In this document: piece by piece, positions 24,159-64,000 of the stretch
Position numbering within the stretch: the first letter of the stretch is position 1
Layout: every line of letters starts with the position of its first letter
NCBI GenBank assembly: GCA_030679145.1
Contig: JAUXTU010000015.1
Location: forward strand, 121,190-185,189
Direction: 5' to 3'
DNA: 64,000 nucleotides
Source of the DNA: Bacteroidota bacterium
GTDB lineage: Bacteria > Bacteroidota > Ignavibacteria > UBA10030 > UBA8401
Notes under the pieces: model-generated
Told to the model about the DNA's origin: nothing
Databases searched by the model: none
The model's input: only the letters and a program-made list of their open reading frames with translations
Position numbers and translations under genes: made by a program

Positions 24159-24264
24159 ATTGTCATTTCGAGCGAAGCCCCGAAGGTGCAAGCGAGAAAT
24201 CTCATATTTATATTTGAATCAAAAAACGAGATTCCTCGTCGCTCCGCTTCTCGGAATGACATTG
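24159..24264. repeat. ~105-bp imperfect palindromic element between nosF and nosL. Its arms, CATTGTCATTTCGAGCGAAGC and GCTTCTCGGAATGACATTG, belong to the GTCATYC repeat family.
   Basis: Inverted arms read directly from the sequence. An internal second dyad GAGAAATCTC / GAGATTCCTC is present. Confidence 0.55.
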
Positions 24265-27604: not shown

Positions 27605-27682
27605 CGTCATTCCCGAATGTTTTTATCGGGAATCCATTTGCATAATTTAAAATTGTGGATTCCCACTTTCGCGGGAATGATA
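27605..27682. repeat. palindromic intergenic repeat, GTCATTCCCG...CGGGAATGA family, copy A
   Basis: TCATTCCCGAATGTTTTTATCGGGAATCC hairpin, plus GGATTCCCACTTTCGCGGGAATGA hairpin. Confidence 0.6.
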
Positions 27683-27725
27683 ACACTCAAGTTTTGTCTC
27701 TAAAACAATTTTATTAGTAACCACA

Positions 27726-28211
27726 TTATTCTACAATAATCGTTGGTTCAACAATAACTTCTGCTGTTATCGAATTTCCAATCAGGCAATTATCGTGCGC
27801 AGTGTGAACAAGTTCTTCTACTTGCTCTGTTGTCCACGAAGATTTCACAACAATGGTCGGTTTAATAATAACTTTTGTAAAGCGATATTTTCCTTCAACA
27901 TTTTCCAGTAGTCCTTCCGCAGAACTTTTGTATGACTTCAGGGGAATTTCCTTTCTCATTCCAAACGAAAGGAACGTAGTCATCTGACAGATCTCTACCG
28001 CGGCAACAAGCATATCTTCAGGAGTCCATGTGCCGGGAATTCCTTTGAATTCCGGCGGACTGGAAACATCGAGCAGTGGTTTTCCTTCAGAGCGGAGAAT
28101 TCCCTGTCGGTCAGATTTCCATTCCACTCCGGTATGATATGTGAACGTCTTAAATTTTCCTGCCAACTTACTGGCGGGCAGATTGATCGGTTGTGATATT
28201 ATTGGTTCCAT
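27726..28211 (-). CDS. OsmC/Ohr family peroxiredoxin-like protein
   Basis: 161 aa. OsmC-like fold pattern with a conserved Cys (VEICQMTT...HDNCLIGNS). Confidence 0.55.
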   Translation of the reverse strand: MEPIISQPINLPASKLAGKFKTFTYHTGVEWKSDRQGILRSEGKPLLDVSSPPEFKGIPGTWTPEDMLVAAVEICQMTTFLSFGMRKEIPLKSYKSSAEGLLENVEGKYRFTKVIIKPTIVVKSSWTTEQVEELVHTAHDNCLIGNSITAEVIVEPTIIVE

Positions 28212-28422
28212 TATTGTTCTCAGGTTCTTTCTTTTTTGGTGAATTTACTAATAGTGCCGCTATTGCCATTCCGTACATTGTTGAAATATACGGATTACTG
28301 GTGATTGCACACGTACCGCTGATGCACCCTATGTAATAATAATAGGCATATCCGCCGGCACCGCCAAAGACAGCGGCAATTCCCCGTTTTTGCCAGACTG
28401 TTAAAGACTTGAAAAATTCCAT
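28168..28422 (-). CDS. small membrane protein with GxGGYAYYYY / CxSGTC motif (start taken at MEFFKS)
   Basis: About 84 aa with one or two TM segments. It overlaps the end of the rhodanese gene. Confidence 0.3.
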   Translation of the reverse strand: MEFFKSLTVWQKRGIAAVFGGAGGYAYYYYIGCISGTCAITSNPYISTMYGMAIAALLVNSPKKKEPENNNGTNNITTDQSARQ

Positions 28423-28781
28423 GTTCCTATTCCGCCTTTCAAATTTCCAACCTTGAATCCAGCTTTTTTCAGTTTTATTGCGGCATTGACACTTCGGCTT
28501 CCGCTGGCGCAATAGCAAATAATCTCTTTGCTGCGATGTTTTTCCAGTTCTTTCAAGCGGGAAGAAAGTTCATGCACAGGAATATGGATCGACGTTGGAA
28601 TAGAACTTGATTTGCGTTCACCCGCCGTGCGAACATCCAACAAAATACTTCCTGTTTTCACTTGTTGTTTTGCTTCGGTGCCGGAATAATTATTTAATGA
28701 ACGGGTCAGTAATTGTTTGCGAATATAGAAGATCAGCATAATGCCGAGCATTGCATAAAAGAAGATTTGTTCTGATGTCAT
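28401..28781 (-). CDS. membrane-anchored single-domain rhodanese (sulfurtransferase)
   Basis: N-terminal TM helix. Active-site loop CYCASGSRS. Confidence 0.7.
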   Translation of the reverse strand: MTSEQIFFYAMLGIMLIFYIRKQLLTRSLNNYSGTEAKQQVKTGSILLDVRTAGERKSSSIPTSIHIPVHELSSRLKELEKHRSKEIICYCASGSRSVNAAIKLKKAGFKVGNLKGGIGTWNFSSL

Positions 28782-28895
28782 TTATTTTTATATTTTAATA
28801 TTTAAAGCAGTACGTAGTTAAAAGCAAAATCATTGCCACAGATTACACAGAAAATTTATATGGTTTCATCAGTGAAATCTGTGGCAATTAAAAAT

Positions 28896-29267
28896 CTATT
28901 GAGTGATAATTTTTTTAGTCAATAAATTTTCGTTGATGACCTTCTTCAATTCGTTCTTCGGAAGTGCGCCGGCAGACATCATCGGTTTTCCTTCTTTGGG
29001 AATGAAAAGAAGTGAAGGGATTGAACGGATCCCGAAGACACTTGCAAGCTCCTGTTCTACATCGGTATTTATCTTATAGAAATTCACCTGTCCTTTCATC
29101 TCTTCGGATAATTCTTCAATGATCGGTCCGACCATTTTGCAGGGACCGCACCACGGTGCCCAAAAATCGACCACCGCAGGAAGCTCGCCGCTGAACTTCC
29201 AATCCTTATTGTTCTCGTAATCAAATACTTTTTTGATGAATGTATCTTTTGTGAGTGCTTCTGACAT
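28896..29267 (-). CDS. trxA: thioredoxin
   Basis: WAPWCGPCK active site. 123 aa. Confidence 0.85.
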   Translation of the reverse strand: MSEALTKDTFIKKVFDYENNKDWKFSGELPAVVDFWAPWCGPCKMVGPIIEELSEEMKGQVNFYKINTDVEQELASVFGIRSIPSLLFIPKEGKPMMSAGALPKNELKKVINENLLTKKIITQ

Positions 29268-29325
29268 TGTCGTACCTTTTTTCTTTGTTATTTTCTATTT
29301 AATTCGTCGTCACTAGTAGTATTAT

Positions 29326-29392
29326 GTCATTCCCGCATGTTTTTGGCGGGAATCTATATTATGGATGCCCGATAAGAACATTCGGGCATGAC
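29326..29392. repeat. palindromic intergenic repeat, GTCATTCCCG family, copy B (two hairpin modules)
   Basis: GTCATTCCCGCATGTTTTTGGCGGGAATCTAT, plus TGGATGCCCGATAAGAACATTCGGGCATGAC. Confidence 0.65.
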
Positions 29393-29411
29393 GAAGTGAT
29401 TTTCCAGAAAT

Positions 29412-29618
29412 TTATTTCAATTTCTCAGTTTCAATTTTTTTATTCGTGTTGATCCCAGTCATATGCCAGATGGGACAATATTTCATGAATCCCGTTATTA
29501 CAAAGATCAATCCGGCGTATGCCCATGGTGTTTCCGGACCCCAAAATGCGAGTGATGTGATCAGTAATCCGAGTGCAATGCGGATCGGTCGTTCTGTTGC
29601 GCCAATATTGGTAAGCAT
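29412..29618 (-). CDS. DUF2892 (YgaP-like) small membrane protein
   Basis: 68 aa. The pattern ..ERPIRIALGLLI....G...GLIFVITGFMKYCPIW matches the DUF2892 consensus. This family is frequently paired with rhodanese. Confidence 0.55.
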   Translation of the reverse strand: MLTNIGATERPIRIALGLLITSLAFWGPETPWAYAGLIFVITGFMKYCPIWHMTGINTNKKIETEKLK

Positions 29619-29701
29619 GATAAAACTCCTTATAAAAAAAATGTGAAAAATGATTGCGTTGTTATTTCAATAGATATGATGCAGCGATCCCTGAAAAGGA
29701 T

Positions 29702-29983
29702 TCAGCGACGGATAGTTTTTTTTGGATATTTTTTATCCAGCTGAATGACAGCGAATAGATTTTTTTTGGCTTTTGCAGAGAGAGTTGGCGCAGGATAGGA
29801 GCGGTATAAAAAGACAGTCTTCTTTAACGAATCGAGCAGGGCAGAGCAATTCTTGCACCCTTTGATATGTGCTTTGATCCTGCGGCACGATTCGGAATCC
29901 AATTTTGAATCCAGATTATCGCATAAGTGTTCGTACACTTTTGAGCAGGATAGCGTGTGAATATGGATGTGTCGTTGTTTCAT
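29702..29983 (-). CDS. zinc-binding (ZAS/zf-HC2) anti-sigma factor, RsrA-like, cytoplasmic
   Basis: HxxxCxxC motif (HIKGCKNC) with upstream Cys residues. 93 aa with no TM. It sits immediately downstream of the ECF sigma gene. Confidence 0.55.
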   Translation of the reverse strand: MKQRHIHIHTLSCSKVYEHLCDNLDSKLDSESCRRIKAHIKGCKNCSALLDSLKKTVFLYRSYPAPTLSAKAKKNLFAVIQLDKKYPKKTIRR

Positions 29984-29984
29984 G

Positions 29985-30581
29985 TTAATGATGTTTCATT
30001 GCTCCGTGTAATTTATGCCGTAAAAACATCCGTGATCGCCGCAGACGCGATTTGACCGCTGGAATGGAAAGCTTCAATATCTTCGCTGTCTCTTCTGCCG
30101 TTCTATTCTCAAGATCGCGCAGAACAAAGACCACTTTATATTCTTCCGGTAATTCCTGAATTGCATCGTCCATTGTTTTGCGCAATTCTTTGTTCATTAA
30201 TGTTTCGATTGGTGAATCATCCCACGACTGCAATTGTTTCTGCACTGCTTCATCGTTCACATCCGGCGCATCATCGAGCGACTCGAGCAGTCCGTCTAAT
30301 TTCCGTTTCCGGCGGTTCATTAAACAATTGTTGGCGACAATGGTATAGAGCCACGTTGAGAACTTCGAACGAGAATCGAACTGATCGATCTTGCGATAAA
30401 CATTGATGAACGTATCCTGAAACGATTCTTCCGCTTTATCCTTATTCCTGCACAGTTTGAATGCAAAACCATACACCGTCTGCTCGTACTGCTTCACCAA
30501 TTGCGCAAATGCGCGTTCATCACCCTGTTTTACTTTGGCGATAAGATGGTGTTCGGTCTGCGTGTCGAGAGTGTTGGTCAT
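29985..30581 (-). CDS. ECF (sigma-70 family) RNA polymerase sigma factor. The start is taken at MTNTLDTQ; the track ORF starts at 30698.
   Basis: Region 2 (FINVYRKIDQFD..FSTWLYTIVAN) and region 4 (EYKVVFVLRDLENRTAEETAKIL) are present. Confidence 0.75.
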   Translation of the reverse strand: MTNTLDTQTEHHLIAKVKQGDERAFAQLVKQYEQTVYGFAFKLCRNKDKAEESFQDTFINVYRKIDQFDSRSKFSTWLYTIVANNCLMNRRKRKLDGLLESLDDAPDVNDEAVQKQLQSWDDSPIETLMNKELRKTMDDAIQELPEEYKVVFVLRDLENRTAEETAKILKLSIPAVKSRLRRSRMFLRHKLHGAMKHH

Positions 30582-30774
30582 TGATATGATGCAGTGAAAC
30601 GAAAAAAAGATGCTTTTGCTTTCAAAGAATAAAGAAAAATGGGTGCGGATGCAAGAAGAGATAAATAGATTACTTCGCAGCGAAGACGTTGGGAACAAGA
30701 TGAAAACTCAAAACCTAACTCACAGGTGCGTTGACAGTTTACACCTCAGAAGTTGAGTAGATGGGTGGCGCTTA

Positions 30775-31527
30775 TCATTCATAGAGATAACGCCTTTCAT
30801 TTAAGACACCTAAACAATAATCAATACCGAAAAGTATTTGTTCGGTTTCATCTTTTGATGATTCAACTTCTTCAACCGTGGGTCTGTATCCATATTTGTG
30901 AATGATTCTATTTCGCAATATATTCACTTGAGTATTTTTCAAACGCAATATTAAATCACTCAATTTATTATCCTCAATACTTTTTATTGCTTCATTTGTT
31001 GGTTCCGACGAATATAACTTCAAATCCAATATTATAGAATTACTTTGCTCAAGGCCATTACTCTTAATTTTGTTCGTAATAAAATTAATAAATGTATTCC
31101 TAAGGAGATAAAATGGCCATTTACGTGTACTTTCAAAAAGTAAATCTGATATTTTATTTAGAAGGTTTTCATTGTAAGATTTTTCAATCCCAAAAGGTTT
31201 ATAAAGCAATTCAACTCTAAGAAATAACGCAAAATACATCTCAAACGATTGTGTTAAATTTAGTATACAATAAGAATATTGCTTCCGTTGTTTTAACACC
31301 TCACAATCTAAAATTAACATTTGCCACGCTGGATTAATTAAATCTTTTTCAATCAGAAATTTAAAATTACAACTACTACTTTGACAGACAACTATTTTCT
31401 CAATGAGAAGTTTAAAGTTTTTAATATCAGATGCACGATTATATATATTCCAATATGAACAATAGGGACAACGCGCCTCAACATTTTCATATGTTGATCT
31501 TGTTTCAGTTGATTTTTTAATTACCAT
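30775..31527 (-). CDS. hypothetical protein with N-terminal Cys4 zinc-ribbon and C-terminal HEPN-like RNxxxHxY motif, located in an AT-rich island
   Basis: CPYCSYW...CQSSSCNF near the N-terminus. LRNRIIHKYGY sits ~50 aa from the C-terminus (nt ~30887-30916). GC is ~30 %. Confidence 0.35.
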   Translation of the reverse strand: MVIKKSTETRSTYENVEARCPYCSYWNIYNRASDIKNFKLLIEKIVVCQSSSCNFKFLIEKDLINPAWQMLILDCEVLKQRKQYSYCILNLTQSFEMYFALFLRVELLYKPFGIEKSYNENLLNKISDLLFESTRKWPFYLLRNTFINFITNKIKSNGLEQSNSIILDLKLYSSEPTNEAIKSIEDNKLSDLILRLKNTQVNILRNRIIHKYGYRPTVEEVESSKDETEQILFGIDYCLGVLNERRYLYE

Positions 31528-31556
31528 ATTGAATTATTATTTTATGAAAAGTTAAT

Positions 31557-32630
31557 CTAGGGTTCTGTTACAACCCGAAAACCGGTAGCAACCTCTCTAC
31601 TTCCAGGACTGTAACCGGCTCGATGTGCAACCCTATGATTAGTATTGTACCCATAATACCAAGAACCACCTCTAACAATACGGTAAATTCCGATTGGAGA
31701 AAGCCATGCACTTCCATCGGTTGGTGCTCCATCATAGTCGCTGTGATAGAAATCTTCACACCATTCCCACACATTACCACTCATGTCGTGAATTCCAAGT
31801 TCATTTCCTGTTTTTGTTGCTACCGGATGTGGGGAATAAAGCTCTATGTAGTTATAATACCATGAAACAGAATCTATGTTGTCACTACCACTATATATAT
31901 AATGAGGTTTATGTGCTTTTATACCACCTTGAGCAGCAAACTCCCATTCTGCTTCGGTTGGAAGTCGAACAATTTTTCCAGTTTTTAAACTCGCCCAAGC
32001 GCAAAACTCTTTTGCATCAAACCAGTTTACATTTATAGCAGGCATTGAAGTTCGGCCCCAACCACCATCATTAGGTTTCGATCGAAATGTTTCTCTGCAA
32101 AATTGGTCATATAGGTCAAATGTTACTTCCGTTTTACAAATTTTAAATGATTTAACGGTCACTTTATGTTGAGGATATTCCTCAAACAACCCTGTACCAT
32201 TTTCACTACCCATATCAAATGTTCCACCATCAGCCACAATCCACTCTACGAGTAATTCAGGAAATCTTGAAATCAATGAAAATTGAATTTGAGATGACTT
32301 TGCAAAATTATTATTAATGTCATACGCTATAACGGATAGCGTATGTGAGTATGAATTAGAATACTTCTTATAGAGTATATAATATTTATATGGATATTGA
32401 TTTAATACCGTATCAATTTTATTATCTACATATATTTCTATTTTATCGATTCCTCTATCATCTTTTGCCGATATTTCAATAAAAATTGAATCTGCCTCAT
32501 TTGTGTTATCCGCAGGTAAAATAATTTTCACTTCTGGGGATATTGTGTTGTTTTCTGTAGGGCTATTTCTTTTGCAAGAAATGATATTTGATAAAACAAA
32601 CAGAATAATGATTGGTATAATAATTTTCAT
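31557..32630 (-). CDS. FGE-sulfatase family lipoprotein
   Basis: Lipobox LSNIISCK. N-terminal Ig-like region. FGE-fold motifs (INVNWFDAKEFCAW, LPTEAEWEFA, RGGSWYY, GFRVV). Confidence 0.65.
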   Translation of the reverse strand: MKIIIPIIILFVLSNIISCKRNSPTENNTISPEVKIILPADNTNEADSIFIEISAKDDRGIDKIEIYVDNKIDTVLNQYPYKYYILYKKYSNSYSHTLSVIAYDINNNFAKSSQIQFSLISRFPELLVEWIVADGGTFDMGSENGTGLFEEYPQHKVTVKSFKICKTEVTFDLYDQFCRETFRSKPNDGGWGRTSMPAINVNWFDAKEFCAWASLKTGKIVRLPTEAEWEFAAQGGIKAHKPHYIYSGSDNIDSVSWYYNYIELYSPHPVATKTGNELGIHDMSGNVWEWCEDFYHSDYDGAPTDGSAWLSPIGIYRIVRGGSWYYGYNTNHRVAHRAGYSPGSREVATGFRVVTEP

Positions 32631-32657
32631 TTTTTTACTTTAACTAATATTTTATTT

Positions 32658-32975
32658 TTATTTTCGAACACCGTAACAAGCTACTGTTGGTCTAGTTAAA
32701 CCAACAACTAAAGTGGAATATTTTCCATTATCACCTTGATTGATAAAGTACTCTTTATAGTCTACGCCGATGACAAGTTTTATTTGTGAATATTTATTTC
32801 TATCAGCACTTAATGTTACCTTAACCGACCAGTATGAATTTAAAGTATTTTGATATTTTCCTACATATTCAGCAGAGACTGAAGTTGGATTTAATAATTC
32901 TTCCTTGCCGCTTTCAGATTCATTTGGATCTGAGCAGCCAACTAATAATAAAATAAAGGATAGTAGTAATTTCAC
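32658..32975 (-). CDS. small lipoprotein, unknown function
   Basis: Lipobox LLVGCS. 105 aa. AT-rich. Confidence 0.4.
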   Translation of the reverse strand: MKLLLSFILLLVGCSDPNESESGKEELLNPTSVSAEYVGKYQNTLNSYWSVKVTLSADRNKYSQIKLVIGVDYKEYFINQGDNGKYSTLVVGLTRPTVACYGVRK

Positions 32976-33285
32976 TTCAATCTCCGATATGGATAGTCGC
33001 CTAATCTATGATTAGTTTGCTTATCAAAAAAACCTGAAATCATTATTCTACTAATGTATCATAAAAATTGTGATGAACAATCCTATCTTCAAGTATGTGT
33101 TAATTTTTGCCTTAATATTAACAAAGTTTGAATAGAGCGCAACATCCTGATATGGCAATCTCTTTTTGATTTTCAATCAAACAAGGTTGTTATTTGCACA
33201 CTGCAACAATTCACTCAAAAAAACGTTTTTTAAGAGTGTTTTTCCTTTGCTTGCACTTCATGTAATTTAAGCTGAAATTTCATCT

Positions 33286-34326
33286 ATGAATCGTCGGGCT
33301 GTATTAAAAAAATTAATCGTTACACCGCTTATGCTACCATCGTTATCGCTCTTTTCACAAGAACGATCCGGGCTGCCGTCACATCATGGCGAGAACGGAT
33401 TCATCAATACCGATCCTGAATTTGCTGAAGCGGGATTCAATGAAATGGCTCCTTGGCTTGCAGGTAAACTCGGCGATATTTTTTATAGCACTCCGAAATT
33501 CGATATCCCCAGAGAAGTGAACGACGGTTCGATCTTCAAAGAAAAAAAAACATACACTATAACATGGATCGGTCAGTCAACCGCATTGATCCAAATGGAA
33601 GGATCGAATTTTCTGACCGACCCTGTTTGGTCATCCAAAGCAGGTCCGTTCAAATTTGCAGGTTCGCCGCGCATTTCTGAACCCGGACTTGCAATAGAAA
33701 AACTTCCTCCGCTCGATTTTGTTCTCATCTCGCACAATCATTACGACCATCTTGATGAATACAGTATTGAATATATTGCTGATCATCATCCGAATGTAAA
33801 ATTCTTTGTTCCGCTCCGTGTCCGCGATTGGTTTGAAGAGCGGGGAATTCAGAATGTTGAAGAGCTGGATTGGTGGGAAGGGGCATCATTCAATAATTTA
33901 AAAATTCTCTGCACACCGGCGCAGCATTTTTCCGGCAGGTGGATCAATGACCGAAATCAATCGTTGTGGTGTTCGTGGACAGTGCTTGGGAAAAAGAGAT
34001 TATTTTTTGCGGGGGATTCTGGATATTGTTCACATTTCAAAAATATCGGAAAAAAATTCGGTCCGTTCGATCTTGCAATGATCCCCATCGGCGCATACGA
34101 TCCGAGAAAATTGATGAAGCCCGTGCATATGGATCCTGCGGAAGCAGTGCAGACATTTTTAGATGTGCGCGGAAAAAAAATGCTTGCCATTCACTGGGGA
34201 ACATTTATTCTGACCGATGAGCCGATGGATGAACCGCCAAAAAAATTATTGAGTGTGGTTGAAGAACAGAAGCTTTTGAAAGAAGATTTTTTGGCTCTGA
34301 AACTTGGTGAAACGAGAGAGTGGTAA
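33286..34326 (+). CDS. metallo-beta-lactamase-fold hydrolase (NAPE-PLD-like) with signal peptide
   Basis: HxHxDH motif (SHNHYDHLD). Signal sequence with RR. Additional metal-ligand His/Asp residues. Confidence 0.65.
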   Translation: MNRRAVLKKLIVTPLMLPSLSLFSQERSGLPSHHGENGFINTDPEFAEAGFNEMAPWLAGKLGDIFYSTPKFDIPREVNDGSIFKEKKTYTITWIGQSTALIQMEGSNFLTDPVWSSKAGPFKFAGSPRISEPGLAIEKLPPLDFVLISHNHYDHLDEYSIEYIADHHPNVKFFVPLRVRDWFEERGIQNVEELDWWEGASFNNLKILCTPAQHFSGRWINDRNQSLWCSWTVLGKKRLFFAGDSGYCSHFKNIGKKFGPFDLAMIPIGAYDPRKLMKPVHMDPAEAVQTFLDVRGKKMLAIHWGTFILTDEPMDEPPKKLLSVVEEQKLLKEDFLALKLGETREW

Positions 34327-34378
34327 GCAAAGATTTATTTATTCTTCATCAGTTTAATTATCTGCATCTTTAAGCGTA

Positions 34379-34447
34379 TCGTCATTCCCGCACGTTTTTT
34401 GCGGGGATCTATTCTGTGGATGCCCGATAAGAACATTCGGGCATGAC
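34379..34447. repeat. palindromic intergenic repeat, GTCATTCCCG family, copy C (near-identical to copy B)
   Basis: TCGTCATTCCCGCACGTTTTTTGCGGGGATCTAT, plus TGGATGCCCGATAAGAACATTCGGGCATGAC. Confidence 0.65.
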
Positions 34448-59565: not shown

Positions 59566-60792
59566 TTATTTTCCGAACTTCTTCACATCTTCAGCACTCA
59601 CACCGGCTTTCGCCGCGATCTCAAGCGTTAACGCATCAACAACGCCGTCTTTTGCCGCAACGGTTTTTGTATCAATTTCCTGCAACGGAACCAAAGAATA
59701 ATCTGCACGCTTCGCCAGCCGTGCATCTAAATCTTTCAACTCAAGTTTGTTGCCAATAACATCATTCGTCAGATCGTCAACTTCGTGCGGAGCAACCGCG
59801 CCGCGCAAAACATGTTTTGCAAGAACTTCTTTTACCTGAATTTGTTTCAACTGCACTTGCAGCGAATCAAATTCAGTTTTCTTGATGTAATCCTTCAGGT
59901 CGACCTGCTGCGATCCCTTTGCTTTCGCAATCACCGTTTTAATTTCTTCCAAAGTCGATTCTGCTTTCACGCCGAGCTCGGCAATAATGGAAGTATGTTT
60001 CAGCGCGAATGCTTTCACATCGGCATCCGAAGCATCTTCCTTCAATCCAAGTTCGGTCATTGCAGCTGTATACTTTGCAGCAACTGTGGATGCTGAATTT
60101 TTCCATCCTTCAATTACTTTTTTTACGTCGTCAAACGTTGCACCGGCAGCCAAGCCGAGCAATTGCAGAATTTGTTCTAACATTGTTGTATCTCCTTTAG
60201 TTTGTTGTGAAATAGAATCCGTTAAATAAATAATCGTTGCAGCGGTATCATCTTTTGCAGTGATCGGTTTAATGTTGTCCAGGAACGGTTCATTCGTCAG
60301 CGAAACATTTTTTATGCGCAGCGGAATTCGTTCGTTCGTTTCTTTGTCCACATCGTTAAACAACAATGTGGGTGAGAGGTATCGATATTCTTTATTCACC
60401 AAATAGTCCGTTGCTTTTTTTGTCCACTCTTTTACCCGGGCATACAGTCCATCTTCTTTCAAAAATATGTCGGACTGCAGCCAACCGGCAGCCGGAGCCT
60501 GAACATCCAGCGATGTTTGATGTTCATAATCAATCACAAGATCGCGGGTCGGGAAACGCAGCTTCAACTGTTTGTGATACTCAACTGCTTTCGCTGCAAG
60601 CTCTTTTGTGATTTCAAATTCAATCGGTGAACCATCGGAAGAGGTGTATCCTTTCCATTCGCCAAACGGTGCAATCATAATCTCGGACGGCACTCCGGAG
60701 AGTGTGGTAAGGTCCGTTGCACGAACAACAAGAATAGTTTGATTCTCTTTTAAATTAATCTTCATGTTTTTTCTTCCGCTTGTGCTTCTCAA
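59566..60792 (-). CDS. Mu gpI-like prohead protease/scaffold protein
   Basis: N-terminal IMIAPFGEWKGYTSSDGSPIEFEI region is like Mu-like prophage protein I. The C-terminal half is an Ala/Lys/Glu-rich coiled coil (scaffold-like). 408 aa. Confidence 0.55.
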   Translation of the reverse strand: MRSTSGRKNMKINLKENQTILVVRATDLTTLSGVPSEIMIAPFGEWKGYTSSDGSPIEFEITKELAAKAVEYHKQLKLRFPTRDLVIDYEHQTSLDVQAPAAGWLQSDIFLKEDGLYARVKEWTKKATDYLVNKEYRYLSPTLLFNDVDKETNERIPLRIKNVSLTNEPFLDNIKPITAKDDTAATIIYLTDSISQQTKGDTTMLEQILQLLGLAAGATFDDVKKVIEGWKNSASTVAAKYTAAMTELGLKEDASDADVKAFALKHTSIIAELGVKAESTLEEIKTVIAKAKGSQQVDLKDYIKKTEFDSLQVQLKQIQVKEVLAKHVLRGAVAPHEVDDLTNDVIGNKLELKDLDARLAKRADYSLVPLQEIDTKTVAAKDGVVDALTLEIAAKAGVSAEDVKKFGK

Positions 60793-61024
60793 CTAAGTAT
60801 TCTACAAAATCATCGCTCTTATACAGCTGCAGTAAAAATTTTGGAAATATCTCCGTAACGAACCGGTCTTGCAGCTTGTTCCAAAAAATAAAAAAGTGAA
60901 ACAACACCGCTATAATAATAACCGTAACGAACAGCGCAATTTTCAGCAGATCCTCAAACAACGGCAGCATCACAACTCCGCCAAGCAGTCCGGACATGAA
61001 CCCTATGTATTTCAATCCGAACAT
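60755..61024 (-). CDS. holin-like protein (2 TM + highly charged C-terminus)
   Basis: 89 aa. TM1 IGFMSGLLGGVVMLPLF. TM2 IALFVTVIIIAVLFHFFIFW. C-terminus KHKRKKKHED. Confidence 0.5.
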   Translation of the reverse strand: MFGLKYIGFMSGLLGGVVMLPLFEDLLKIALFVTVIIIAVLFHFFIFWNKLQDRFVTEIFPKFLLQLYKSDDFVEYLVEKHKRKKKHED

Positions 61025-61290
61025 TAGTTTTCCGATCCCATTAATTCTGCATTGATAATTGCCAGGTCGCGCACATGTTTTGAAAGCTGACCGTGCTTGC
61101 GCTCGATCTCTTTCATGTAAACCTTCATCGACTTGATGTCCAATTTTTCGGTGTACGAAAGATCGGCATCGCGGAATCCGATCTTGTCGCGCAATGCGCT
61201 CACCATAACGTCAACTTCAATCCGTAGTCCCTGAATTAATTCTTCCAGTTCCGCTTTCCGTCCAATTTTTAAAGTCCGTTCGTTGCTCAT
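61024..61290 (-). CDS. small hydrophilic lysis-cassette protein, unknown function
   Basis: 88 aa, predicted helical. Overlapping start and stop codons with its neighbours. Confidence 0.3.
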   Translation of the reverse strand: MSNERTLKIGRKAELEELIQGLRIEVDVMVSALRDKIGFRDADLSYTEKLDIKSMKVYMKEIERKHGQLSKHVRDLAIINAELMGSEN

Positions 61291-61949
61291 AATTTATACC
61301 GTCGTATGATTGTGATAAGTTTAAGTGCATACTGTCCATCCTCGGCATACACGCTCAGCGCGCGCACAAAATTTTCTGCACTGTTAGTATAGAACGCTGC
61401 CCGAAAATGTTTTGATGTTGTTAAATATTTTCCGTGCACATCAAAACACTCATCAATATTTTTGTAAACCGTAAATTGCAGTGTCCGTTTGTTGCCGATT
61501 GTTTCGGTGCGAGTCACCGATTTATTTAATGATGAAAATTTTCCGGTTGCTCCGAACGTATGTCCCAAATAATTTGATACACCGAGATTATTTTTTCCCC
61601 ACGAACTTTCCAACGCCCACTGCGCCAAATACACCGACGCGGGAATATTATATTTTTCACTGTAGATTTTCGCCAGTGTTTTTACCGTGTCCGGGAAATA
61701 TCCGAGCCGGCTCATCGGCAGTTCCTTACTCGCACTCATCTGCGCTCTATCTGCGTCACCATCTGCAAAATCTGCGTAATCAGATGTTTCAATTCCTGTC
61801 CAATCAGCAATCACAAAATCAACCAGTTCGTTTTCTTTTTGACGCGCGTCGTTCATTTCAACATTCCAAAATAAATACACAATCCCGCCGCCGACAATAA
61901 TTCCGACGAAGAAAATTCCTATAAAATATTGAATGTCGAATCTGTTCAT
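61287..61949 (-). CDS. endolysin: glucosaminidase (FlgJ-like muramidase) domain with N-terminal Gly-rich SAR-like TM segment
   Basis: N-terminal IGIFFVGIIVGGGIVYLFW. Glucosaminidase motifs YLAQWALESSWGKN and LGVSNYLGHTFG. Confidence 0.65.
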   Translation of the reverse strand: MNRFDIQYFIGIFFVGIIVGGGIVYLFWNVEMNDARQKENELVDFVIADWTGIETSDYADFADGDADRAQMSASKELPMSRLGYFPDTVKTLAKIYSEKYNIPASVYLAQWALESSWGKNNLGVSNYLGHTFGATGKFSSLNKSVTRTETIGNKRTLQFTVYKNIDECFDVHGKYLTTSKHFRAAFYTNSAENFVRALSVYAEDGQYALKLITIIRRYKL

Positions 61950-61963
61950 AATTTAAAATGAAA

Positions 61964-62033
61964 AAGCCCCGAACGCTGAACGCTGATAGCTGATAGCTAT
62001 AAGCTGCTCTACATTCGGGGCTTCTTGTTATCG
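61964..62033 (-). terminator. rho-independent terminator with unusually large repeat-containing loop, 14 nt upstream of the endolysin start codon
   Basis: On the - strand: AAGCCCCGAA-[44-nt loop with GAACGCT x2 and GATAGCT x2]-TTCGGGGCTTTTTCATTTT. Confidence 0.55.
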
Positions 62034-62065
62034 AATAACCGCGACTAATATTTTATTCCCCTTGC

Positions 62066-62102
62066 GTCATTCTGACACTGAGCACCGCGAAGTGGAAGAA
62101 TC
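62066..62102. repeat. GTCATTCTGACACTGAGCACCGCGAAGTGGAAGAATC repeat unit (variant of the GTCATYCTGA...GRATC family)
   Basis: Read directly. Confidence 0.45.
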
Positions 62103-62176
62103 TGCTTGCGGCGTCGGACGTAAAAGGATGTGTTGCTTTCGTAACTTACAAAAAAAATAAATCAAGTCAAATACTA

Positions 62177-62470
62177 TTACGGATTCCGGATCTGCAAATA
62201 AACAATTCCGGTATACACTCCGCCGATAGTTGTCTTCCCGACAAAGTTGATCGTGTAATCTGCACCGTTCGCTCCGTTAAGCAAGCGTCCCATTAAGATA
62301 GTGCCGCTTACCTGTTTGTCGCTGATCATCGTTGCGGATTGATCTGCTCCGGCAGAATCGAGAACGTTAATTTCGCACTGCGCGCCGTCCAGTATCTCAC
62401 CAATCGGAAGATCGTTCTCAAAGTCCCACGCTATCGGATAATTTTCAATTGATTGTTTTACAAGGATCAT
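62177..62470 (-). CDS. hypothetical protein (phage-associated?)
   Basis: 97 aa, beta-rich. It lies between the repeat protein and the terminator. Confidence 0.3.
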   Translation of the reverse strand: MILVKQSIENYPIAWDFENDLPIGEILDGAQCEINVLDSAGADQSATMISDKQVSGTILMGRLLNGANGADYTINFVGKTTIGGVYTGIVYLQIRNP

Positions 62471-62483
62471 AATTTTTCCAGAT

Positions 62484-62516
62484 CGTCATTCCCGAACGCT
62501 TTAGTCGGGAATCTAT
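62484..62516. repeat. palindromic intergenic repeat, GTCATTCCCG family, copy D (single-hairpin half copy)
   Basis: TCGTCATTCCCGAACGCTTTAGTCGGGAATCTAT. Confidence 0.55.
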
Positions 62517-63736
62517 TCAAGCGTTGAAACTCGACGTTTGTTTGAAAACGTATATTTCTTTTTATCGCCTTTAAACGTAAGCACTCGTCTGCCGTTAAAA
62601 ATTATTTTCGGCTGCAACAGATCTAAGATCGATGCCGAGATGATAAAATCTGCCAACTCCAACAACGCCGTAACCGTGCGAATTATTCCCGCATACGGAT
62701 CTTCCGGTATCGATCCACCAAACAACACTGCTGCTGCCACATCAATCAATCCAAAGCCGTTAACTTCATCCCACACGCCTGCTTCACTTCCGGTCATCCG
62801 GGCGCGATACCGCGCTTCCCACCACGAACAATTCAAATCCGATTTGATCTTAAAAATTTGTCCCGCAATATATCCGTTGCTAAAACTCGACGCGTCGGGC
62901 TCAATCGTAATCGGATCCGGCGAGAAAAATTCAATGTCATCACCGGTCTCATTATTCACATCACCCGCGCCGGTTACAATTATACTCGGCAGATTCGCAC
63001 CGCCGTTGCTTTCAAAAATTTCTCCCGGAGAATTACTTCCTGCCGGGATAAATGACTGAATCCCGTGATTCTTATAATAGTCAAGCGCGGTTGCAATGAA
63101 CGAGCTTAAACTGGTTGTCGATCTGATCACCATTTGAGCGCCGACACTCCGCGCATATTCTATATCTGCAGAAAATCCGCCGTTACGAATTACAACGTTC
63201 GCACTGGTCAGCAATCCACCCGCTCCGGCAATCAACGCTGCACGCACATTCTCCGGATGTCCGGTTAACGTTAGATCGCTGATCACCGCAATAATAGCAG
63301 GTTCGGTAACAGTTCCATTTCCGCTCACCGCCGCATCGTCAAGAATTGCCTGAGCTTCAGCAATAATTGCGTTATCAATAATTGCCGAGACAATTATTTC
63401 ATCCACTGCATTCGCAGCGTCCGCGCCGAGCGATGCGTTCGAGCTTGCGTCAATCGTTTGATCATTCAACGCTGCATCACCAGCCGCGTTTATCTCTGCG
63501 TTTGCATTTGCATCAACTGTTTGATCTGCCAGCAATGATTCAGCAACTGCATTTATTTCCGCGTTTGAATTTCCATCTGCAGCAACATCGGCAAGGACCG
63601 CACTTCCAATAGCATCAATACCATTATTCGCAAGCGCGTCCACAATAAAATCATCGAGTGAAAGATCAGCGGTTGCTGTAATCGGTGATACGGCAGATGT
63701 TCTATTGCCAAAAAATATTTTTAAATTCGATCTCAT
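62513..63736 (-). CDS. repeat-containing protein: N-terminal Ala/Asp/Asn-rich ~21-aa tandem repeats, C-terminal degenerate subtilase(S8)-like region. The start is taken at ATG 63736 (TAATG overlap with the upstream ORF); the track uses GTG 63775.
   Basis: Tandem repeats ADVAADGNSNAEINAVAESLL / ADQTVDANANAEINAAGDAAL / NDQTIDASSNASLGADAANAV. The C-terminal GFGLIDVAAAV resembles the end of an S8 catalytic domain. Confidence 0.4.
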   Translation of the reverse strand: MRSNLKIFFGNRTSAVSPITATADLSLDDFIVDALANNGIDAIGSAVLADVAADGNSNAEINAVAESLLADQTVDANANAEINAAGDAALNDQTIDASSNASLGADAANAVDEIIVSAIIDNAIIAEAQAILDDAAVSGNGTVTEPAIIAVISDLTLTGHPENVRAALIAGAGGLLTSANVVIRNGGFSADIEYARSVGAQMVIRSTTSLSSFIATALDYYKNHGIQSFIPAGSNSPGEIFESNGGANLPSIIVTGAGDVNNETGDDIEFFSPDPITIEPDASSFSNGYIAGQIFKIKSDLNCSWWEARYRARMTGSEAGVWDEVNGFGLIDVAAAVLFGGSIPEDPYAGIIRTVTALLELADFIISASILDLLQPKIIFNGRRVLTFKGDKKKYTFSNKRRVSTLE

Positions 63737-64000
63737 TATGTGGTTGTTGGAATTGATAGAACAAAATCTAACCACTCTTTCGGATTTGTTTGATCAATAC
63801 AAACAATCGTTACCACATCGGCATTCATTTCCGTTGCCGATAAACTGATAAGCACCAATACTGATCCGGCAGGATCGACCGTTGGCAGCGTTGTTAAATT
63901 ATTTAATCCGGCACCATCCTTGTCGACCTTAAAATCTCCGGCAGCTATTGTTGGATTCGATTTGAACGCTCCGCTGCCATCTACATTTGGCAGTGCAATG
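63736..64000 (-). CDS. partial ORF (C-terminal 88 codons) translationally coupled to the next gene; fibre/structural-like composition
   Basis: Hand translation of the - strand is open from 64000 to the TAA at 63736-63738 (..GDFKVDKDGAGLNNLTTLPTVDPAGS...). It is not in the ORF track because it is truncated. Confidence 0.3.
   Translation of the reverse strand, partial: IALPNVDGSGAFKSNPTIAAGDFKVDKDGAGLNNLTTLPTVDPAGSVLVLISLSATEMNADVVTIVCIDQTNPKEWLDFVLSIPTTT

What the first reader, a model, noticed from the sequence alone, without database searches (positions are those of the whole stretch)
27605..34447. Family of GTCATTCCCG...CGGGAATC palindromic intergenic repeats (MITE/REP-like), at least four copies
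Copies lie at 27605-27682, 29326-29392, 34379-34447 and 62484-62516 (a half copy). They share a 33-bp hairpin module, TCGTCATTCCCG-N7-9-CGGGAATCYAT. Copies B and C share a second, near-identical 31-bp hairpin module (TGGATGCCCGATAAGAACATTCGGGCATGAC). All are intergenic. Several sit between convergent or tandem genes where they would form mRNA 3' or 5' hairpins.
Basis: seen in the sequence. Interest (0 to 1): 0.5.

Follow-up and report, generated by a model that had tools for sequence, protein, structure and literature searches.

The report
Ssn-type (NTS-like) hairpin repeat family
The repeats are real and belong to a hairpin-repeat family described in 2025 (Neisseria NTS / Ssn-related motifs), which elsewhere flanks a small nuclease that cuts single-stranded DNA, so this is an ordinary new member of a known kind.

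Summary
The window holds seven copies of one oriented hairpin unit, GTCAT[T/G]CCCG-N11-CGGG[A/C]ATC-CA. They form three head-to-head doublets (A 27606-27681, B 29326-29392, C 34381-34447) and one singleton (D 62485-62513).

The unit has the sequence frame of the Neisseria NTS/dRS3 repeat but a 9-nt loop. Unit A2 is the short-loop NTS/dRS3 form. NTS-like "Ssn-related motifs" (Chenal 2025, PMC11893778) are ssDNA hairpins cut by small GIY-YIG nucleases (Ssn) whose genes they flank.

Scans found the unit in at least 120 genome stretches across many phyla, at least 120 metagenome stretches and 74 viral stretches. The 8-bp stem covaries strongly. Doublets are almost always head-to-head (145 versus 2). 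There are no target-site duplications, no RAYT association and no terminator-like tails.

In nine independent loci, a ~95-aa GIY-YIG gene lies between units, usually unit(+)-gene-unit(-). Doublets therefore look like gene-less derivatives. Close relatives lack the elements at the orthologous sites. The window encodes no Ssn, and the source genome could not be examined.

Verdict: a new member of a known kind, of modest interest.

The parts
27606..27634 (+). Unit A1, long-loop class: GTCATTCCCGAATGTTTTTATCGGGAATC. It lies 21 nt upstream of the DUF302 start codon on the opposite strand.
   Evidence: covariance model 53.3 bits, E 2.8e-13
27658..27681 (-). Unit A2, short-loop class: ATCATTCCCGCGAAAGTGGGAATC. 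It has the Neisseria NTS sequence frame and fits ATTCCC-N8-GGGAAT (dRS3). With A1 it forms a head-to-head doublet with a 23-nt spacer.
   Evidence: covariance model E 0.011
29326..29354 (+). Unit B1. It matches the published SRM degenerate motif exactly.
29364..29392 (-). Unit B2, with G-C instead of T-A at stem pair 6/26. It forms a doublet with B1 with a 9-nt spacer. A Logan contig ends inside it.
34381..34409 (+). Unit C1, with one G.T wobble in the stem. It matches the SRM motif.
34419..34447 (-). Unit C2, identical to B2 over 31 nt. It forms a doublet with C1 and lies between convergent genes. A Logan contig ends here.
62485..62513 (+). Unit D, a singleton inside a prophage-like structural-gene region. 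It lies 14 nt upstream of a 97-aa ORF and touches the stop codon of a 420-aa ORF.
24162..24260 (.). A related but distinct head-to-head pair with the same GTCAT...ATC frame and a different stem core (GTCATTTCGAGCG... / GTCATTCCGAGAAGC...). It is probably another Ssn-related-motif type and is not counted in the family.
   Evidence: covariance model weak hit E 0.065; a Logan contig ends inside it

Best explanation
The elements are members of the NTS / Ssn-related-motif (SRM) class of bacterial hairpin repeats.

Anatomy. Each unit is an oriented ssDNA hairpin. It has an 8-bp stem (ATTCCCGM / KCGGGAAT) and a 9-nt T-rich loop closed by a purine-purine mismatch. A non-palindromic 5' YY-GTC and a 3' C-CA give it polarity. 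Three of the four elements are head-to-head doublets of two non-identical units.

Shown here:
- The sequence and structure match the known class.
- The stem covaries.
- The units are oriented.
- Doublets have a strict head-to-head geometry.
- There are no target-site duplications.
- Units occur across many phyla and in phage contigs.
- In other genomes, units tightly frame a ~95-aa single-domain GIY-YIG gene, usually as unit(+)-gene-unit(-).
- Close relatives of this organism lack the elements at the orthologous sites.

Inferred:
- In this genome the units are recognised, and one strand is nicked just upstream of the hairpin, by a cognate Ssn nuclease encoded elsewhere. This would happen when the DNA is single-stranded, during replication, repair, transformation or conjugation.
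- The doublets are gene-less, non-autonomous derivatives of the unit-ssn-unit cassette, and they spread with the help of that nuclease. This parallels REPINs and RAYTs.
- Any effect on neighbouring transcripts is secondary.

In Neisseria the demonstrated consequence is restriction of incoming ssDNA carrying the motif during transformation. Whether that applies to this organism is unknown. It looks like a Bacteroidota/Ignavibacteria-like organism, judged from the names of its best homologues.
For: Literature. NTS is CGTCATTCCCGCGMAVGCGGGAATCYRG. SRMs flank ssn genes, and SsnA cuts only the ssDNA form (PMC11893778).

Window units. They share CGTCATTCCCG...CGGGAATCYA. B1 and C1 match the published SRM regex, 2 observed against 0.19 expected.

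Logo and covariation from about 330 non-window units:
- Pair 6/26 is TA 244, CG 41, GC 41.
- Pair 11/21 is AT 173, CG 150.
- 99.4% of cells are paired, 7 of 8 pairs show double changes, and 0 of 500 shuffles reach these values.

Orientation. The correct strand scores about 50 bits and the opposite strand about 11 bits.

Short-loop units. Several are exact NTS-consensus sequences, and they co-occur with long-loop units in the same loci.

Doublets. Head-to-head versus tail-to-tail is 76 versus 2, and 145 versus 2 in the larger set.

GIY-YIG association. It is the only protein family repeatedly flanked on both sides within 120 bp. Five such loci came from unit-selected DNA (L090, L106, L125, L205, L303). 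Four more came from loci selected by the protein alone, and all four are framed by units (L325, L329, L333, L334). The protein hits PF01541. It has Y6, Y17 and E64 at the same positions as the residues mutated in N. meningitidis SsnA.

Presence/absence. Relatives L316 (86% nt identity), L324, L317 and L319 lack the elements at sites A-C. L319 carries a variant doublet at a site that is empty in the window.
Against: - No ssn/GIY-YIG gene is present in the 64-kb window.
- The source genome could not be retrieved, so the partner is unverified for this organism.
- Equivalence of the flanked GIY-YIG proteins with CDD family cd10448 / N. meningitidis SsnA rests on size, domain, residue positions and context. 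No direct alignment was possible.
- No biochemical data exist for the long-loop class.
- Mobilisation by Ssn has not been demonstrated for any member of the family.
- Collection scans fixed 16-17 positions of the pattern, so conservation at those positions is by construction.
Confidence: 0.72

Rival explanations
1. These are REP/REPIN elements mobilised by a REP-associated tyrosine transposase (RAYT, IS200/IS605-like Y1 enzyme).
For: The architecture matches the REPIN definition: two palindromic units in inverted orientation separated by a short spacer, intergenic, multi-copy, and without target-site duplications (PMC3116915 and PMC3337134 abstracts).
Against: - No Y1 transposase is framed by units. 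The only Y1-like ORFs in 2.3 Mb of unit-containing loci lie 0.55-6 kb from the nearest unit.
- None is in the window.
- The only family tightly framed by units is GIY-YIG.
- The two units of a doublet are preferentially different at covarying stem positions. There are no G/G or C/C pairs at position 6, against about 20 non-T/non-T pairs expected. This disfavours the long inter-unit hairpin typical of REPINs.
Confidence: 0.08
2. The hairpins are primarily RNA-level elements, such as transcription terminators, attenuators or mRNA-stabilising 3' hairpins.
For: - All elements are intergenic.
- Element C sits between convergent genes exactly where the close relative L316 has a canonical bidirectional intrinsic terminator.
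- Elements are mildly enriched between convergent genes, 57 observed against about 43 expected.
- C1 is flagged weakly as terminator-like.
Against: - No T-tract follows the stems.
- Terminator-like calls in the region do not exceed shuffles, 6 observed against 6.4 expected.
- Singleton orientation relative to transcription is near random, 84 versus 66.
- Elements also lie in divergent regions (38) and directly upstream of start codons (A, D).
- The conserved non-palindromic GTC...C-CA flanks and the strict doublet geometry are not explained by this model.
- No Rfam family matches.
Confidence: 0.1
3. This is a classical MITE derived from a DDE-transposase insertion sequence, with terminal inverted repeats and target-site duplications.
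For: The doublets are small (67-76 bp), have inverted ends (GTCAT...ATGAC), and vary in presence among relatives.
Against: - No target-site duplications of 3-8 nt occur at the element ends in any of 163 doublets, and 2-nt matches are at chance level.
- No parent IS or transposase is associated.
- Singletons are common: 348 of 523 elements.
Confidence: 0.03

Closest known systems
Neisseria Transformation Sequence (NTS) and Ssn-related motifs (SRM), with SsnA/Ssn GIY-YIG ssDNA nucleases (Chenal et al., Nat Commun 2025, PMC11893778)
   Same: - The same sequence frame: CGTCAT-TCCCG...CGGG-AATC-YR.
- Hairpin with oriented flanks.
- Intergenic and multi-copy.
- Spread across many phyla.
- Units flank a ~95-aa single-domain GIY-YIG gene.
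- Unit A2 and many co-occurring units elsewhere carry the NTS sequence itself.
   Different: - Six of the seven window units have a 9-nt T-rich loop closed by a purine-purine mismatch, instead of the 4-nt loop.
- Most window units are arranged as strict head-to-head hetero-doublets.
- The host is Bacteroidota/Ignavibacteria-like, not a symbiont or pathogen.
- The cognate nuclease was not seen in the window.
Neisseria dRS3 repeats (ATTCCC-N8-GGGAAT) and NIMEs
   Same: A2 (27659-27678) fits ATTCCC-N8-GGGAAT exactly. The stem sequence is identical.
   Different: The long-loop units are ATTCCC-N13-GGGAAT. No NIME-type mosaic of RS blocks was seen. No link to filamentous-phage integration was tested.
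REP / REPIN elements with RAYT transposases (Bertels & Rainey 2011, PMC3116915)
   Same: - Inverted doublets of short palindromic units.
- No target-site duplications.
- Intergenic.
- A single small 'domesticated' nuclease gene framed by the repeats.
- Presence/absence variation among relatives.
   Different: The framed gene is a GIY-YIG nuclease, not a Y1 (HUH) transposase. The two units of a doublet are preferentially non-identical at covarying stem positions.

Membership tests
NTS / Ssn-related motif (SRM) repeats | Sequence frame CGTCAT-TCCCG ... CGGG-AATC-YR (NTS consensus CGTCATTCCCGCGMAVGCGGGAATCYRG) | tested here: met
   All seven units carry (G/A)TCAT[T/G]CCCG ... [CT]GGG[ACG]ATC followed by C/T-A. 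A2 differs from the NTS consensus at only 2-3 positions.
NTS / Ssn-related motif (SRM) repeats | Match to the published degenerate SRM search string HGTCWYN(0-2)YYVSBRHN(0-5)WNVSBRGN(0-2)RNCYNB | tested here: inconclusive
   B1 and C1 match, 2 observed against 0.19 expected in shuffles. The other five units fail only in the loop-proximal positions.
NTS / Ssn-related motif (SRM) repeats | Semi-palindrome that forms a hairpin as single-stranded DNA | tested here: met
   DNA folds give an 8-bp stem with z-scores of -2.3 to -5.4. Covariation: 99.4% of cells paired, 7 of 8 pairs with double changes, 0 of 500 shuffles as high.
NTS / Ssn-related motif (SRM) repeats | Conserved non-palindromic flanks that give the unit an orientation (upstream GTC, C after the palindrome) | tested here: met
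   Free positions -1/0 are Y-Y and +30/+31 are C-A. The covariance model scores about 50 bits on one strand and about 11 bits on the other.
NTS / Ssn-related motif (SRM) repeats | Rarely inside genes; many copies per genome | tested here: inconclusive
   All 4 window elements are intergenic, with 7 units in 64 kb. The genome-wide copy number could not be measured because the source genome was not retrievable.
NTS / Ssn-related motif (SRM) repeats | Spatial association with an ssn gene (single-domain GIY-YIG, cd10448) framed by the motifs | tested here: met
   Met in other genomes: 9 of 9 GIY-YIG loci have units within about 130 bp of the gene ends, and 8 of 9 have the unit(+)-gene-unit(-) arrangement. 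The window itself has no GIY-YIG gene. The cd10448 assignment itself was not testable with these tools.
NTS / Ssn-related motif (SRM) repeats | Strand-specific binding and cleavage by the cognate Ssn on ssDNA only | not testable with these tools
   Needs biochemistry.
Neisseria dRS3 | ATTCCC-N8-GGGAAT | tested here: inconclusive
   A2 (27659-27678) fits. The six long-loop units have N13.
REP/REPIN-RAYT | Two REP units in inverted orientation with a short spacer | tested here: met
   Head-to-head versus tail-to-tail is 76 versus 2, and 145 versus 2 in the larger set. The commonest spacers are 9-23 nt.
REP/REPIN-RAYT | A RAYT (Y1 transposase) gene framed by the repeats | tested here: not met
   No Y1-like ORF lies within 0.5 kb of a unit in 2.3 Mb of loci, and none is in the window. 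The source genome as a whole was not examined.
MITE (DDE transposon derivative) | Target-site duplications flanking terminal inverted repeats | tested here: not met
   0 of 163 doublets have a 3-8-nt duplication at the element ends. 2-nt matches occur in 9 of 163, which is chance level.
Intrinsic (rho-independent) terminator | GC-rich stem followed by a T-tract, oriented with transcription | tested here: not met
   No T-tracts follow the stems. Only C1 is weakly flagged, and the count equals the shuffle expectation. Singleton orientation is 84 versus 66.

The most novel reading that the evidence does not exclude
The long-loop unit and its strict head-to-head hetero-doublet may be a not-yet-described subclass of Ssn-related motifs, and the doublet may be the replicating, non-autonomous form of a unit(+)-ssn-unit(-) cassette. 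In that case the GIY-YIG Ssn nuclease would act like a domesticated mobilising enzyme, a GIY-YIG counterpart of RAYT/REPIN. It would spread these doublets across more than 15 phyla and into phage genomes.
Probability: 0.25. Interest if true: 0.6.

Novelty: new member of a known kind. Interest (0 to 1): 0.3.

Why it matters
It assigns a common, puzzling metagenomic repeat to a family with an experimentally defined partner, the ssDNA-specific Ssn nucleases. This is the repeat that yields spurious 'VIPAKAGI/SFPRKRES'-type ORFs (seen in the extended reading frames of L205 and L303) and coincides with short-read contig ends.

It also extends that family to an Ignavibacteria/Bacteroidota-like genome and its prophage.

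The data add three testable details:
- A conserved long-loop variant of the unit.
- A strict head-to-head hetero-doublet geometry.
- The same geometry framing the ssn gene.

Together these would let the question 'do Ssn nucleases mobilise their own repeats?' be tested directly.

For annotation it is practical. These sites should be masked as repeats, not called as genes or terminators.

Tried and rejected
- Rfam (gathering thresholds) and tRNA scans of the window found nothing.
- The terminator/promoter consensus scan gave no excess over shuffles.
- The target-site duplication test was negative.
- The RAYT search used an IS200 TnpA sequence recalled from memory with jackhmmer. Hits were only far from units.
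- An all-against-all search for filled versus empty sites among fetched loci gave six candidates. Most were ambiguous. One (L012 versus L044) shows a singleton where the other contig has a doublet, with a 27-nt indel at GT^CAT.
- Attempts to recover the source genome failed. Exact-protein look-ups returned only two short Logan contigs of run SRR13727518, and these end inside the repeats. No fetched locus other than these is near-identical to the window.
- The supplementary tables of the Ssn paper are not held. A 2026 preprint that mentions SsnA and hairpins could not be opened.
- The PDB holds no Ssn structure. The nearest entry is UPF0213 BH0048, 1ZG2, at E 8e-5.
- I did not scan every window ORF against Pfam. 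Annotation outside 27-35 kb and 55-64 kb rests on synteny.
- Gene contexts use a crude longest-ORF gene caller. It placed 123 of 523 elements 'inside' ORFs, probably often spuriously.
Full report
**1. Observation**

The loose pattern ATTCCCR-N5-14-YGGGRAT gives 9 strand-matches, against 0.07 expected from dinucleotide shuffles.

There is therefore one unit, used in both orientations.

- Elements A, B and C are head-to-head doublets.
- Element D is a singleton.
- Copy A's second unit (27658-27681, minus strand) has a short 4-nt loop.
- The gap between CCCG and CGGG is 11 nt, not 7-9 nt.

I built a covariance model from 110 units of other organisms, with no window sequence included. It finds exactly these seven units in the 64 kb. 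Six have E<=3e-8 and A2 has E=0.011. The only other hit at E<0.3 is at 24226-24264 (E=0.065). The correct strand scores about 50 bits and the opposite strand about 11 bits, so the units are oriented.

All elements are intergenic:
- A lies between OsmC and DUF302.
- B lies between a YgaP-like ORF and thioredoxin.
- C lies between convergent MBL-fold and membrane-protein genes.
- D lies between two unannotated ORFs, and it touches a TAG stop codon.

**2. Anatomy**

I derived a consensus from about 330 non-redundant 29-nt units collected elsewhere: YY-GTC-ATTCCCGM-R-TGYTTTW-R-KCGGGAAT-C-CA.

The stem is 8 bp long and covaries strongly:
- Pair 6/26 is T-A 244, C-G 41, G-C 41.
- Pair 11/21 is A-T 173, C-G 150.
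- Pairs 9/23 and 5/27 also show compensatory changes.
- Pairing is 97.6% at the free positions, against 49-68% expected under independence.
- On alignment A1, 99.4% of cells are paired and 7 of 8 pairs carry double changes. None of 500 shuffles reaches these values, and the slid controls collapse.

The loop is 9 nt, T-rich on the GTCAT strand, and closed by a purine-purine pair.

As ssDNA, each unit folds into the 8-bp hairpin. Doublets fold either as two hairpins or as one long hairpin of similar energy.

**3. What is known**

A full-text search for the sequence led to Chenal et al. 2025 (PMC11893778). The paper reports the following:
- The Neisseria dRS3 repeat (ATTCCC-N8-GGGAAT) is in about half of cases part of a 28-nt oriented hairpin, the NTS: CGTCATTCCCGCGMAVGCGGGAATCYRG.
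- NTS-like "Ssn-related motifs" (SRM) occur in many bacteria.
- They flank the gene of a small single-domain GIY-YIG protein (SsnA, CDD family cd10448).
- SsnA binds and cuts the motif only as ssDNA, on one strand, just upstream of the hairpin.
- In N. meningitidis this restricts integration of transforming DNA that carries NTS.

The window units share the NTS frame. A2 fits the dRS3 pattern and differs from the NTS consensus at only 2-3 positions. B1 and C1 match the published SRM search string exactly. The other units fail it only because their loop is longer than the string allows.

**4. Distribution**

The fixed-gap pattern GTCATKCCCG-N11-CGGGMATC returned the following:
- 74 stretches in IMG/VR viral contigs.

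The genomes include Nitrospirota, Ignavibacteria/Bacteroidota, Omnitrophota, Chloroflexota, Elusimicrobiota, Planctomycetota, Calditrichota, KSB1, Cloacimonadota, Desulfobacterota, and Zeta-, Beta- and Gammaproteobacteria.

The window-specific loop variant alone gave at least 120 metagenome stretches. Short-loop units, several of them exact NTS-consensus sequences, co-occur with long-loop units in the same loci.

**5. Doublets**

Among neighbouring units, head-to-head (+ then -) outnumbers tail-to-tail by 76 to 2, and by 145 to 2 in the larger set. The commonest spacers are 9-23 nt.

None of 163 doublets has a target-site duplication of 3-8 nt at the element ends.

The two units of a doublet tend to differ at the covarying stem positions. 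No doublet has G/G or C/C at position 6, and only 3 pair two non-T units (G with C), against about 20 non-T/non-T pairs expected. Variants at that position almost always partner a T-type unit. This disfavours a long inter-unit palindrome.

The specific hetero-doublet of B and C recurs, spacer included, in other contigs:
- At 84-91% identity over 63-71 nt in other metagenome contigs.
- At about 84-86% in a Deltaproteobacteria MAG (L115), an Anaerolineae MAG (L144) and a viral contig (L071).

**6. Partner gene**

I ran an unbiased screen of ORFs flanked on both sides within 120 bp by units. Apart from duplicated phage contigs, it gave one recurrent family: a ~95-aa GIY-YIG protein. It hits PF01541 at E 1e-14 to 1e-17.

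Five such loci were present in the unit-selected DNA: L090, L106, L125 (frameshifted), L205 and L303.

As an independent test, I fetched four loci selected by the protein alone: L325, L329, L333 and L334. All four are framed by units within about 130 bp of the gene ends.

In 8 of 9 loci the arrangement is unit(+)-gene-unit(-). This is the same geometry as the doublets, which therefore look like gene-less derivatives of the cassette.

The protein has Tyr6, Tyr17 and Glu64 at exactly the positions mutated in N. meningitidis SsnA (Y6A, Y17A, E64A). Many of them sit on very short contigs.

No GIY-YIG ORF is present in the window.

Y1/RAYT-like ORFs exist in three loci, but they lie 0.55-6 kb from the nearest unit.

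**7. Dynamics**

Syntenic loci from relatives lack the elements at sites A, B and C:
- L316, at 86% nucleotide identity.
- L324, with an 80% identical MBL protein.
- L317 and L319, with about 75% identical MBL proteins.

Model R1 finds nothing in 60 kb of these loci except one weak variant doublet in L319. That doublet sits in the Ldh/L27 spacer, which is empty in the window and in L317.

At site C, L316 has a canonical bidirectional intrinsic terminator instead of the doublet.

The elements were therefore gained or lost recently. The intergenic flanks are too diverged to define exact junctions.

Short-read Logan contigs from run SRR13727518 end inside B2, C2 and the related repeat at 24.2 kb.

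**8. RNA-level roles**

The evidence does not favour a primary RNA-level role:
- The stems are not followed by T-tracts.
- Terminator-like calls equal the shuffle expectation.
- Singleton orientation relative to transcription is 84 versus 66.
- Elements are only mildly enriched between convergent genes, 57 observed against about 43 expected, and they also occur in divergent spacers (using a crude gene caller).

A secondary effect on transcripts is possible. It is most plausible at C, and at A and D, where units lie 14-21 nt upstream of start codons. This is not the best primary explanation.

**9. Verdict**

The finding is real. It is a new member of a known kind: NTS/Ssn-related hairpin repeats.

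Three details may be new:
- The long-loop class.
- The strict hetero-doublet geometry.
- The matching geometry around the ssn gene.

Whether the published SRM catalogue already includes these could not be checked, because its supplements are not held.

The main gap is that the cognate nuclease of this genome was not seen.

Noticed in passing
window 24162-24260: A head-to-head pair of a different hairpin repeat with the same GTCAT...ATC frame but a CGAG-type stem (GTCATTTCGAGCGAAGC...GCGAGAAATC / GTCATTCCGAGAAGCGGAGCGACGAGGAATC). It is probably another Ssn-related-motif type. A Logan contig ends inside it.
   Followed up: partly
window 55610-55653, 57046-57089, 57525-57560, 58733-58776: A third repeat family: TCCCTCTCCCT-NNN-AGGGAGAGGG-TTrGGGTGAGGGT, a hairpin plus a G-rich tail. 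All four copies are on the same strand, in the spacers between prophage structural genes.
   Followed up: no
window ~55000-64000 (possibly from ~50100): A prophage-like structural module on the minus strand: major head protein 57644-58675, head-tail adaptor 57082-57513, neck 56602-57036, and head maturation protease 59566-60792 (PHROGs). GC content is higher and GC skew is negative here. Unit D lies inside this region.
   Followed up: partly
window 30659-33249: A 2.6-kb low-GC insertion relative to the close relative L316, where the ECF sigma and MBL genes are adjacent. It carries three ORFs: a 250-aa ORF of unknown function, a 357-aa ORF with Big_7 and FGE-sulfatase domains, and a 105-aa ORF. 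It lies between doublets B and C.
   Followed up: partly
L009/L015/L039/L072 (IMGVR_UViG_3300028837_002970), L002/L016/L027, L011/L029/L055, L020, L041: Some IMG/VR viral contigs carry many units. One 39-kb contig has 11 exact matches. The units often lie between what appear to be structural genes, so the repeats also populate phage genomes.
   Followed up: partly
L316 1944-2030; L319 11060-11110: At the site orthologous to doublet C, relatives carry classic bidirectional intrinsic terminators: AAAAGTCACACT...AGTGTGACTTTTTTTT in L316 and AAAAAAAGTCATCC...GGATGACTTTTTT in L319. Both hairpins begin with GTCA.
   Followed up: no
L012 4174-4240 versus L044 1900-1945: Two related viral contigs differ by a 27-nt indel that turns a singleton into a doublet. 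The junction reads GT^CAT, and CAT is repeated at both ends of the indel.
   Followed up: partly
L325 2501-3226: Here the unit(+)...unit(-) frame encloses the ssn gene plus a 119-aa ORF with no Pfam hit. The cassette sits between gyrB and gyrA.
   Followed up: no
L329-L332 1-3663: In these contigs the framed ssn gene sits between an MmeI-like type IIL/IIG restriction-modification gene and a Fic-domain gene. This is a defence-island-like neighbourhood.
   Followed up: no
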